From assembly GCF_009914755.1 (NCBI RefSeq), contig NC_060947.1: a stretch of DNA of 64,000 nucleotides; one strand, given 5' to 3'. Within the stretch, counting starts at the first letter, position 1; each line of letters starts with the position of its first letter. Of this stretch, positions 7-46,821 are shown piece after piece. The position numbers and the translations under genes were made by a program. Under the pieces are notes generated by a model that worked only from the letters and a program-made list of their open reading frames with translations, was not told the DNA's origin and ran no database searches. The DNA is from the human T2T-CHM13v2.0 reference genome, Homo sapiens.

Positions 7-86
7 CATGACCTTCCTGCGTGTGCATGGGCCCGGGGGTGGTAGTGGCTGGCACTTGATTTTCCATTAAAGAGGCCCATGATTTT
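7..86 (-). pseudogene. Candidate exon (80 nt)
   Basis: Acceptor attttcctttttttaaAG, donor atg|GTaaaa. GC/CpG-richer than flanks. Two frames are open (KIMGLFNGKSSASHYHPRAHAHAGRS; KSWASLMENQVPATTTPGPMHTQEGH). Confidence 0.65.
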
Positions 87-211
87 CTTTAAAAAAAGGA
101 AAATATGGTTCTTGTTCAGTTATAAAATATTCATACTATAGGACAATAAGTTGCCTTATGGATCACCAGTGATCCTCAGACCAATCTCAGAAAACAACCA
201 AAAAAATTCAC

Positions 212-398
212 TCTTTGGTGCATTGTCACAACACGTTTTAAGGCTGAAGCTAACTCAGTAATGGATTCAACTATGATCTATTTTGTATTGATGCAAAGTC
301 ATTTGGTAAAACATCATCCTCCAACAAAATGGTTCAAATAAGTATTGATGAAGTTGCAGCATGGAAAGCCTATTGTATTCAGGCAGTGTTAGGATTGT
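212..398 (-). pseudogene. Candidate frameshifted exon (187 nt), end of an RGS-like repeat
   Basis: Acceptor ttgtttattttAG, donor aga|GTgaat. Different frames give AFHAATSSI, LFEPFCW, ILLEDDVLPNDF and IIVESITELASALKRVVTMHQR. Confidence 0.6.
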
Positions 399-799
399 CT
401 AAAATAAACAATCTTGGGATCCATAGATGTCTCAGATTTGCATTATTGTTTGAGGTGTAATTGAAATTAAAACATTCATAAGTGTATTTATGTCTGTCTC
501 AGATTCAGAGAATGAGTGGCAAGGAAAGTCCTTGATATTACCAAATGAGTGAATAGCTTCTTGTAGTGTCTCTTATCTCTGAAAATTAAAGAGAAGTTTG
601 TTCAATTATCATTCTGCATCATTGTATTAAAAAATACCTTTCTAGATTCATCTTATAAATATAGTTTTGAAAGTTATTTCAGTAAGATTGCAGAGAAGGC
701 TTAATTTTTTCTATAGACTTTCAGATAGACAAGGTAACTAAGCTCTTTTTCTACAATGAAAACAAAACATATAAGCTTTCAGTAACTCTGGGTATGTTG

Positions 800-865
800 A
801 GCAGTGACTGGATAAAGTAGCAGTCAGGAGTTCTAAGTTCTAATTTCACCTCAGCTACTATTGTC
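800..865 (+). repeat. MIR fragment
   Basis: agtcaggagttctaagttctaatttcacctcagctacta resembles the MIR core. Confidence 0.5.
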
Positions 866-1074
866 TCTAAATCTGTTTGTACATCTAAGAAGCAAGCGGA
901 TTTAGTTTGTCTAGACTTCCAAATTTGGCTCTGCTGAATCTAGGGAGTTCCATGTTTTCCTCAAAAGTCACATTTAGGCAGGAGAGAAAGGAGAAAAGAT
1001 TTCCTTTCATGTCTTGAGCAGTCAAAAATTTCAGGTTTCCAACACATTTCAACCAAATGATGGGTCTGATGTCC

Positions 1075-2097
1075 TTCATGCCCATGACTTTAGTAACCCT
1101 CTATATGCAGATAACTTCTAAATGTGTATCTCCATATCACATGCCTCTTGTGAGCATCCAATTGTCTGCATCCAATTGCCTACTCAATATCTCCAACTGA
1201 ATGTTCCAAAACCCTATCACACTCAACATGCCCAAGACCAAATTCTTGATCTTCCACAACCAAATGGCATCTTGCTATGTTCTTTATCACAGTAAGTAGC
1301 ATCAGTATCCTTTCAGTTGTGCAATCCTTAAAACTAGGCATTATCCTAGACACCTTCTACTTCCTTACCTCTATTTGTCCTCACTCTCACATCCTGTGAA
1401 TTTGACTCTCTAATATTCCTTGAGTGATTTCACATCTCTCCATTAATCCTGTGACAAAACTAGTCCAAGCTGATATCATCTCTTGCCTGGATTATAAGAG
1501 TTTTCAAACTGGTCTGTCTGCTTCTTCTCTGAATCTCTGCCCCCTTTCAATCAATTCTCCATATTTAAAGCAGATTTACCTTTTAAAGCCAATTCTGACC
1601 TTGTTACTTTCTTTATTAAAGTATTCCAGTGGATCGCGATCATCTTTGGGAAAAGACCAAACTCCTTTACGTAGCTTACAAAGCTATATATATATATATA
1701 GTTTTTTTTTCCTGTCTCCTTCTCTAGATTCGTTTCATCTCACGTTGTCTTTGTTGTGCTGTAGCCACCTGCATCTTCCTTTCGGCTCTTGTATAGGCCA
1801 TGGTCTCTTCTGCCACAGGATCTTTGCATGTGTTATCTTCATTTAAAATGCTCTTACTGCTCCATTCCATTCTCCAAATATCCCACCTGGTTAATTCCTA
1901 CTCTTCCTTTAGACAATTGTTCAGGAGTTAATACTTCAGGAAAACTTTGCAAAATTCTCATTCTGGGTCACGTCTTTTGTTCTTTGATACTTTTATAACC
2001 ACATTCCTTTTCTTCATCACATTTAATCCACTCATTTATGTGACTATTTTATAATATACGAATTCTCCAGTAGCTCTAAGCTCTGTGAGAATGAAGC
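1075..2097 (+). mobile_element. L2 (LINE2) 3' portion
   Basis: Pyrimidine-rich; ctatatgcagataacttctaaat matches the L2 RT LYADDS region; continues towards the L2 3' end. Confidence 0.85.
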
Positions 2098-2520
2098 TAT
2101 GGCAGATTGCATTTTCCAAAGATGGTTGCAATAACATCTCCTATTTAAACATAATTTTCTGTGATGTTATCTTGTGACTTCCCCCATCAAAAGGTGGAGT
2201 TTGATTCCTCTCCTTTGAATTGGGACTGACTTACCAATGCTTTGGCTAATGGAATGTGTCACAGGTGACATTATGTGACTACTATGGCTAAGTCATAAAA
2301 GTCAGTGCAACTTCTTTTTTTTTTTAACCAGAACACTTGCATTTTGAGCCCTAAATCACCGTGTAAGAAGTTCGAGTACTCTGAGGCTCCTGTACTATGA
2401 AGAAACCAAGCCACATGGAGGTGCTCCAGTTGGCAGTCTTAGTCTTCATAGCATCCCAGCAAGGTGCCAGACATGTGGGTTAAAAAGCCTTTGATAATTT
2501 CAATCACCAGCCATCAATTA
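2098..2520 (+). mobile_element. MLT1 (G/H-like) MaLR LTR fragment
   Basis: Begins tatggcagattgcattttccaaagatgg, followed by typical MLT1 internal blocks. Confidence 0.75.
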
Positions 2521-45000: not shown

Positions 45001-45727
45001 ATTTTTTCAAAAAACCAGCTGCAGGATTTGTTGATTTTTTGAAGGGTTTTTCTTGTCTCTATATCCTTCAGTTCTGCTCTGATCTTCGTTATTTCTTGTC
45101 TTCTGCTAGCTTTTGAATTTGTTTCCTCTTGCTTCTCTAGTTCTTTTAATTGCGATGTTAGATTGTCAATTTGAGATCTTTCCTGTCTTCTGTTGTGGGC
45201 ATTTAGTGCTATAAACTTCCCTTTTAACACTGCTTTAGCTGTGTCCCAGAGATTCTGGTACATTGTCTCTTTGTTCTCACTGGTTTCAAAGAACTTCTTG
45301 ATTTCTGCCTTAATTTCATTATTTTTCCAGTAGTCATTCAGGAGCAGGTTTTTCAATTTCCAGTAGTTGTGTGGTTTTGAGTGAGTTTCTTAATCTTGAG
45401 CTCTAATTTGATTGCACTGTGATCTGCGAGACTGTTTGTTACAATTTCTGTTCTTTTGCATTTACTGAGGAGTGTTTTACTTCCAATTACGTGGTCAATT
45501 TTTGAATAAGTGCCATGTAGCACTGAGAAGAATGTATGTTCTGTTGATTTGGGGTGGAGAGTTCTGTAGATATCTATCAGGTCCACTTGATCCAGAGCTG
45601 AGTTCAAGTCCTGAATATCCTTCTTAATTTTCTGTCTCATTGGTCTGTCTAATATTAACAGTGAGATGTTAAAGTCTCCCACTATTATTGTGTGGGAGTC
45701 TAAGTCTCTTTGTACATCTCCAAGAAT
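42090..45727 (-). mobile_element. 5'-truncated L1PA (L1PA7/8-like) with fragmented ORF2
   Basis: Successive minus-strand ORF2 pieces ([48 protein letters not shown]); poly-T at the left end. Confidence 0.95.
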
Positions 45728-45882
45728 CACACATATGCATAAAAGTTTCTAAATTACTCTACTGGTCTGCATTGCTGCCACTTCAATCATTTTTGTCATC
45801 TGCTAGCACTCTTAGCAACCAGTGTGAAAAAAATTTATACATGCAATTATAAGATTGAAAAATGTCCATGTATTAGCCTAAC

Positions 45883-45980
45883 ATTTCCTCCCTGTGAGTT
45901 GAGAAAAAAAGCACCAGTATTAGAGTTTAGTTGAAAATCCTTCAATTGGTCTTGTTGTGGGGGCGGGGGTGGGATAAGCC
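45883..45980 (-). pseudogene. Candidate exon (98 nt; may extend to 45841)
   Basis: Acceptor ttgtttgctttacattccAG; phase-1 open reading LIPPPPPQQDQLKDFQLNSNTGAFFLNSQGGN; shifted YMDIFQSY downstream. Confidence 0.55.
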
Positions 45981-46106
45981 CTGGAATGTAAAGCAAACAA
46001 GCCATTGAATAGGAAGACATAGGGGCTCTGCCCAGCACAATGAAAACATCTTTAAACATGCCTAATAGTTTAATTAACATATCAAACCTTTCTTTAAAAG
46101 GTTTAT

Positions 46107-46693
46107 TGGGGAGAGCCCAAGATAGCTGAACAGAAACAGCTCCAGTCTGCCGCTCCCAGTGAGACCAATGCAGAAGGCAGGTGATTTCTGCATTTCCAAC
46201 TAAGTTACTCAGTTCATCTCATTGGGACTGGTTAGGCAGTGGGTGCAACCCATGGAGAGTGAGCAGAAGCAGGGTGGGGCATCCTTTCATCCAGGAAATG
46301 CAAAGAGCTGGGGGACTTCCCTCCCCCAGCCAAGGGAAGTAGTGAGAGACTGTGCTATCTGCCCCAGGTACTATGCTTTTCCCATGGATTTTTGCAATCT
46401 GCAGATCAGGAGATTCTCTCATGAGCCTGTACCACCAGGGCCCTGGGTTTCAAGCACAAAACTAGGGTGGCTGTTTGGGCAGGAGAAGAAGAGACATTCT
46501 GTTTTTTTTTTATTTTCAGCATTTTTGCACTGTTTTTCCCTCATCTTCATAGATTTATGTACCTTTTATCTTTGAGGCTGATGACCTTTGGATGGGGTTT
46601 TTGTGTGGGGGTCTTTTTTGTTGTGGTTGTTGTTGTTGCTTTCTGTCTGTTAGTTTTTTTTTTTTTTGACCCTCAGGCCCCCTCTTCTGCAGG
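46107..46693. mobile_element. L1PA 5' UTR start (+, 46107-46482) joined to an inverted 5' UTR/ORF1-start piece (-, 46483-46693)
   Basis: ccaagatagctgaacagaaacagctccagtctgc start, then the reverse complement of the L1 ORF1 start (ttttcagcatttttgcactgtttttccctcat). Confidence 0.85.
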
Positions 46694-46711
46694 TCGTTGT
46701 ATATTGCATAC

Positions 46712-46821
46712 CTATGCCATATTCAGTTTGTATAAAATTGCTCCTACTTTCCAAGATTGAGTTAAATATGTCAGGATTTCATAGTGTTTCTCAAAGGGTA
46801 CTGAATCCCAGATGCTTCTAT
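46712..46821 (-). pseudogene. Candidate frameshifted exon, RGS-like C-terminus (alternative acceptor at 46860)
   Basis: Donor tag|GTATGc; reads RSIWDSVPFEKHYEILTYLTQSWK, then shifted NFIQTEYGI ending phase 1, matching the 45980 exon. Confidence 0.6.

What the first reader, a model, noticed from the sequence alone, without database searches (positions are those of the whole stretch)
7..46821. Fossil multi-exon gene of the RGS22/RGSL1 family hidden between repeats
Seen: most non-repeat islands hold a minus-strand segment with a pyrimidine-AG acceptor and usually a GT donor. Five are symmetric multiples of 3 (81, 93, 129, 129, 129 nt), and neighbours often match in phase. The ORF track does not assemble it because the exons are short. 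Knowledge (recalled): RGS domains have FxxFL, LxFW, IYxxF/YIxxxAPxxxN/D and F..AQ..I...L...W/YPRF..S motifs, and RGS22 and RGSL1 carry several divergent copies. Inference: the translations fit those motifs but do not match RGS22 or RGSL1 as I remember them, and they contain stops and frameshifts. This suggests an intron-containing paralog that died in this lineage and may survive elsewhere. I cannot tell whether it is already annotated.
Basis: partly seen in the sequence, partly recalled or inferred. Interest (0 to 1): 0.9.

Follow-up and report, generated by a model that had tools for sequence, protein, structure and literature searches.

The report
Unproven fossil RGS gene on X
This gene-empty stretch of the human X chromosome is likely ordinary non-coding DNA and old repeats whose exon-like ends arise by chance, although one weak match to the protein RGSL1 leaves a long-dead gene possible.

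Summary
The AG...GT segments exist (81, 93, 129 and 129 nt found; the third 129 not), but they are no commoner than on the other strand (76 vs 74 in 264 kb). The cleanest one, 93 nt, lies inside an old interspersed repeat (34 other copies; 8 of 8 fetched copies cover it). Pfam RGS, a home-built RGS profile and full-length RGS22 give no significant match. Three protein-database searches with window pieces found no intact orthologue. It needs a join without a GT donor that I placed by hand, lies mostly in a linker, and fades under a composition-aware model. Simulation shows these paralogue tests have low power. Verdict: not shown, not excluded; about 0.52 chance pattern, 0.40 fossil RGSL1/RGS22-type gene. 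An intact non-mammalian orthologue would decide.

The parts
46712..46821 (-). candidate segment, 110 nt, AG..GT; best single match to RGS22 (aa 841-862, WDSVPFEKH vs WDNVPAEYKH, one frameshift)
   Evidence: 23.5 bits, 0 of 30 shuffles for this piece; not significant chain-wide, 16 of 60; single copy
45763..45891 (-). candidate segment, 129 nt, weak donor, 2 stops in best frame; overlaps RefSeq enhancer 45765-46399
   Evidence: no match above shuffles; single copy
41097..41201 (-). candidate segment, 105 nt; its donor half lies in an interspersed repeat
   Evidence: four other genomic matches to 41131-41060
38480..38611 (-). candidate segment, 132 nt; first piece of the RGSL1 chain (aa 683-715)
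   Evidence: alone 4 of 30 shuffles reach it; single copy
38022..38181 (-). candidate segment with an FxxFL motif
   Evidence: no match above shuffles; single copy
36385..36480 (-). candidate segment, 96 nt
   Evidence: 15 of 30 and 13 of 30 shuffles reach its best matches; single copy
32748..32831 (-). candidate segment, 84 nt, stop-free
   Evidence: single copy; no match above shuffles
27326..27594 (-). two candidate segments, 27594-27515 (80 nt) and 27372-27326 (47 nt), strong sites
   Evidence: single copy; 27367-27326 resembles RGSL1 732-745 in a path that scored within the null
   Evidence: 34 other copies at 65-84% identity; 8 of 8 fetched copies cover 90-93 of its 93 bases
14638..14718 (-). 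candidate segment, 81 nt, stop-free, carries the LHFW motif
   Evidence: outside the repeat; 17 of 30 and 11 of 30 shuffles reach its best matches
9023..9151 (-). candidate segment, 129 nt, weak donor; its last 13 codons open the best RGSL1 match
   Evidence: single copy
3734..3857 (-). candidate segment, 124 nt, ends on GA not GT; core of the RGSL1 match (aa 767-804)
   Evidence: 20 bits alone, 0 of 30 shuffles; repeat check crowded by a CA run
3044..3162 (-). candidate segment, 119 nt, strong acceptor; head matches RGSL1 805-821
   Evidence: chain falls from 31.5 to 25.5 bits without it
13..750 (-). four candidate segments 750-638, 578-542, 398-about 155, 86-13; the first three join in phase, with a 43-codon open stretch at 398-270
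   Evidence: single copy; no protein, Pfam or Atlas support

Best explanation
The region is likely neutral intergenic DNA, young and old repeats plus AT-rich unique sequence, in which exon-like ends and RGS-like motifs arise by chance. Shown: the splice-like segments are no commoner than on the opposite strand, and at least one 'exon' is a repeat fragment. Inferred: the remaining segments were never exons, and the RGSL1 match is the best of many tries.
For: No strand excess of splice-bounded segments. The 93-nt segment is in a repeat and the 41201 donor too. No RGS hit in 31 + 4 window pieces by Pfam nor in the genome-wide RGS search. Home-built RGS profile: no minus-strand window segment among the best hits except unrelated ones at 2402 and 34289 with under 4 bits; window tiles rank below controls. 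RGS22 and RGSL1 by tblastn: best E 4.0 and 2.5, outside the candidates. Free spliced alignment: within the null for both proteins. The motifs best kept between RGS22 and RGSL1 have no significant match in 264 kb. No intact orthologue.
Against: 5 of 50 piece-by-protein tests beat all 30 shuffles (about 1.6 expected, my arithmetic). Eight of the stretches checked have no other copy (the search warns that no match does not show rarity). The negative tests are weak: a decayed RGSL1 is detected by RGS22 in only 7 of 10 and 3 of 10 runs at 0.2 and 0.3 substitutions per site.
Confidence: 0.52

Rival explanations
1. The segments are remains of a multi-exon RGSL1/RGS22-type gene on the minus strand that died long ago, likely early in placental evolution, and now decays neutrally; the window would hold the part matching the third and fourth RGS-like domains. 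Its living form would be a large multi-RGS protein; that function is inferred from family membership only.
For: Collinear RGSL1 match aa 753-821 across three segments in one frame with one stop, 31.5 bits, extended to aa 683-821 over five segments, 35.0 bits. Phase-consistent joins. Low power explains the blanks. Recalled, not tested: a fish gene si:dkey-10p5.7 is classed with RGS22; one search shows only that the gene name exists, not its family or place.
Against: The join at 3734 has no GT and I placed it; without the 3162 piece the score is 25.5, inside the null. Composition-aware scoring: 2 of 40 and 12 of 40 shuffles reach it, just under the best of 30 shuffles. 3 of 50 order shuffles reach 35.0. 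RGS22 (7 of 50) and the joint profile (29 of 50) fail. The joins do not fall at RGSL1 introns. The match is mainly linker.
Confidence: 0.4
2. Some segments are remains of a lost gene of another family, or exons of a non-coding transcript, and the RGS reading is wrong.
For: Several single-copy segments have strong splice sites (27594-27515, 27372-27326) and 750/578/398 join in phase with a 43-codon open stretch.
Against: No family hit near a curated cut-off in Pfam, no full-length protein in the database searches, Atlas best score 0.77, codon periodicity not above controls (46, 166 and 79 of 300), no gene annotated (hub table).
Confidence: 0.08

Closest known systems
Human RGSL1 (chr1; 18 exons rebuilt into a 1038-residue open frame)
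   Same: Best and only nominally significant match: aa 683-821, collinear over three to five segments.
   Different: Low identity, mostly linker; joins not at RGSL1 introns; no match to its best-kept fourth-domain motif; no tblastn hit.
Human RGS22 (P0047, 1264 aa, four Pfam RGS stretches; exons 4-26 mapped)
   Same: A short motif at aa 841-862 in the first segment, followed by a phase-2 junction within about two codons of RGS22's intron at aa 876 (the two-codon reading is by eye).
   Different: No significant chain, with or without its intron positions as a prior; other piece matches are out of order.
Human unitary pseudogenes found by PhyloCSF (PMC6886504)
   Same: Same kind of claim: a multi-exon gene dead in humans.
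   Different: Those have a named intact orthologue; the list of 44 has one chrX row, at 64.4 Mb, not here.

Membership tests
RGS domain (Pfam PF00615) | Match to the RGS profile at the curated cut-off (23.9 bits) | tested here: not met
   0 of 31 and 0 of 4 window pieces list RGS at E up to 1; no chrX row among 37 genome matches from 64 candidates. Short decayed exons would also fail.
RGS domain (Pfam PF00615) | Helix motifs in domain order across spliced segments | tested here: inconclusive
   Spliced profile scans rank window tiles among or below controls; on the hand-made chain 21.2 bits, 0-3 of 40 and 1-6 of 40 shuffles.
RGS22/RGSL1 family | Collinear homology to RGS22 | tested here: not met
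   16 of 60; 7 of 50; power low.
RGS22/RGSL1 family | Collinear homology to RGSL1 | tested here: inconclusive
   Above all shuffles, not; rests on a non-GT join.
RGS22/RGSL1 family | Intron positions shared with a paralogue | tested here: not met
   Best chain joins at RGSL1 aa 766 and 804/805; RGSL1 introns at aa 743, 783/784, 827. RGS22 intron prior gave no gain. Whether RGS22 and RGSL1 share introns was not counted.
Unitary pseudogene | Intact syntenic orthologue in another species | not testable with these tools
   No other vertebrate genome is held; word-based and phmmer protein searches found only short genomic ORF calls.
Unitary pseudogene | Exons are unique sequence, not repeat fragments | tested here: inconclusive
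   Not met for 15123-15031 and the 41201 donor; no other copy for eight stretches; crowded for 3857/3162; 34446, 33814, 18547 not checked.
Unitary pseudogene | Residual coding signal or conservation | tested here: inconclusive
   Periodicity between controls and decayed simulations; no multi-species alignment available.

The most novel reading that the evidence does not exclude
Xp22 between RPS6KA3 and CNKSR2 holds the unannotated wreck of a third RGS22/RGSL1-type gene, a large multi-RGS-domain protein lost in early placental mammals and still intact in non-mammalian vertebrates.
Probability: 0.38. Interest if true: 0.55.

Novelty: not a real feature. Interest (0 to 1): 0.25.

Why it matters
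If chance, it matters only as a caution: recalled motifs and AG/GT ends can be assembled from neutral DNA, even from a repeat. If the fossil is real, it adds an unlisted human unitary pseudogene and a third member to a small, poorly studied multi-RGS family, dates a gene loss in a gene desert, and points to a living orthologue in which the function can be studied.

Tried and rejected
Pfam on short pieces: no RGS. Word search with the 93+81 pair: 5 candidates, none at E 1; half of that query later proved to be a repeat, so it says little. phmmer with 150-3161 in one frame: five short ORF calls, no full-length protein. Word search fed by eight window pieces: 1 of 235 candidates, a human-like genomic ORF. 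Atlas: RGS22 returns only RGS22 clusters and one weak bacterial row; the 43-codon stretch scores 0.77. Lenient spliced alignment: 65.7 vs shuffles 60.6-81.2. Codon-model scores and the coding score were driven by base composition and are not used as support. Strand skew: uninformative. P0005, an apparent orthologous stretch from another mammal across the 750 acceptor: by hand 7 of 10 visible changes fall on the proposed third codon position, not significant. Boundary slips: three ends were off by one and one; corrected with the same outcome. Literature: searches found no description of this locus (listings and abstract starts only). PMC6886504: passages, file S3 whole, term search of supplements with files 1 and 8 left out; file 8 is cut and my chrX search failed its positive control, so PhyloCSF candidates here are unchecked. 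PMC10195156: supplement term search only. PMC3296468: term search of main text; supplements unavailable and may bear on the claim. PMC6403153: two passages. PMC6688801: one passage and supplement rows. Earlier findings were closed.

Full report
Setting. The window is human chrX 20,584,001-20,648,000 (and the hub table), with no annotated gene. I read all of it, fetched 140 kb below and 60 kb above, and masked repeats by self-comparison, leaving about 157 kb of 264 kb. That mask misses old repeats, as one search showed. The splice weight tables are recalled approximations.

Observation. Segments of 81, 93, 129 and 129 nt with AG and GT are there; a third 129 was not found with a GT. Some neighbours join in phase. 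But such segments are as common on the plus strand: 76 vs 74, strong acceptors 29 vs 25 and donors 38 vs 28 in 1-47000, phase-matched symmetric pairs at 1 place vs 6. The best-looking exon, 15123-15031, is part of a repeat of about 500 bp with 34 other copies; all 8 copies fetched cover it, 5 with the same AG and 2 with the same GT. Its phase match to the 81-nt segment is therefore accidental. The 41201 donor is also in a repeat. Eight other stretches showed no second copy and so no retrocopy either; 3857/3162 was crowded by a CA run; three segments were not checked.

Family tests, negative. Pfam lists no RGS for 35 window pieces. I obtained RGS22 (P0047; exons mapped) and rebuilt RGSL1 from the genome as a stop-free 1038-residue frame. 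The two are homologous along their length (23% identity in the C-terminal part, E 1.4e-11). Neither gives a tblastn hit in 264 kb. A spliced, frameshift-tolerant aligner of my own scored the window within shuffled-protein and other-region nulls for RGS22, RGSL1 (26.1 vs shuffles 23.5-37.2 and controls 29.4-34.5) and RGS profiles. Database searches found no intact orthologue, only short ORF calls on human-like or other mammalian genomic DNA. These searches need several exact five-residue words, stop at 2000 residues, or used one frame of 3 kb, so they speak only against a close, well-conserved orthologue.

Family tests, positive. Piece by piece, 3 of 25 beat all 30 shuffles with RGS22 (46821, 45980, 3857) and 2 of 25 with RGSL1 (6654, 3857); 45980 is a proline run and 6654 is out of order. 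On the joined chain RGSL1 aa 753-821 aligns across 9151, 3857 and 3162 in one frame with one stop: 31.5 bits, 0 of 60 shuffled proteins, 0 of 60 control chains (first seen). With free skipping of segments it reaches 35.0 bits over five segments and aa 683-821: 0 of 50, 0 of 50, and 3 of 50 order shuffles. In the same runs RGS22 (16 of 60; 7 of 50) and the joint profile (44 of 60; 29 of 50) fail. Weak points: the 3734 end has GA, not GT, and was set after I had seen; without the 3162 piece the score is 25.5; a codon model that allows for base composition leaves it at the top edge of the null; the joins are not RGSL1 introns; the match is largely linker while the best-kept motifs of the family are not found. 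Three queries and several settings were tried. I read this as roughly a one-in-ten to one-in-thirty result (my estimate), not proof.

Power. Decaying the last 2070 nt of RGSL1 and searching with RGS22, exon ends known, gave scores over 27 bits in 19, 12, 3 and 2 of 20 runs at 0.1, 0.2, 0.25 and 0.3 substitutions per site, and beat all 12 shuffles in 10, 7 and 3 of 10 runs at 0.1, 0.2 and 0.3. One or two lesions per segment would put a real fossil in the weak range (inference). Codon periodicity does not separate the readings.

How it most likely works. As neutral DNA it does nothing as a gene: pyrimidine runs ending in AG and GT dinucleotides are frequent in AT-rich sequence and old repeats, and six frames with free frameshifts supply short RGS-like motifs (shown for the splice signals and the 93-nt piece, inferred for the rest). 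Under the rival reading it is equally inert today: a dead minus-strand gene whose domains three and four span the window, with a living form inferred to be a large multi-RGS protein like RGS22 or RGSL1.

What is known. No paper on this locus turned up in nine searches (listings and abstract starts). The 44 unitary pseudogenes of PMC6886504 do not include it (file S3 read whole); its candidate-region file could not be searched properly, and the supplements of PMC3296468 were unavailable. GENCODE, TOGA and conservation tracks were not available. That a fish gene si:dkey-10p5.7 belongs with RGS22 is recalled; one search confirms only the name, and its place is unknown to me.

Verdict. Observation partly confirmed and not above chance; interpretation neither shown nor excluded. 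Chance pattern 0.52, RGSL1/RGS22-type fossil 0.40, other lost gene or transcript 0.08. Interest 0.25; 0.55 if the fossil is real. One alignment against an intact non-mammalian orthologue would settle it.

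Noticed in passing
window 14820-15340: Old interspersed repeat of about 500 bp, not among the longest stretches in the hub's mask list, 34 other copies at 65-84% identity; family not named, no Pfam hit in six frames.
   Followed up: partly
window about 34600-34735 and 35380-35510: A direct repeat of roughly 130 bp on either side of repeat insertions (seen); local duplication, identity not measured.
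   Followed up: no
window 45763-45891: One 129-nt candidate lies inside the RefSeq enhancer 45765-46399, next to an L1 fragment (L1 label recalled); any conservation there could be regulatory.
   Followed up: no
L011 about 2915-2956 (window coordinate -27044, minus strand): A short FLK..EN..LFW motif, the most RGS-like string in 264 kb, scores 21.4 bits, the same as a plus-strand control at 21.8; shows the chance level.
   Followed up: partly
window 650-1190: P0005, an unnamed 174-residue ORF call, looks like the orthologous DNA of another mammal across the 750 acceptor; identity is similar inside and outside the candidate exon by eye.
   Followed up: partly
L064-L077 and P0047: Human RGSL1 and RGS22 align along their length, sharing N-terminal motifs as well as the last domains.
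   Followed up: partly
window 42100-45760, 22400-27000, 54400-59500 (minus) and 9480-12000, 47500-50300 (plus): Large decayed L1-like elements in both orientations (label recalled); no orientation bias evident.
   Followed up: no
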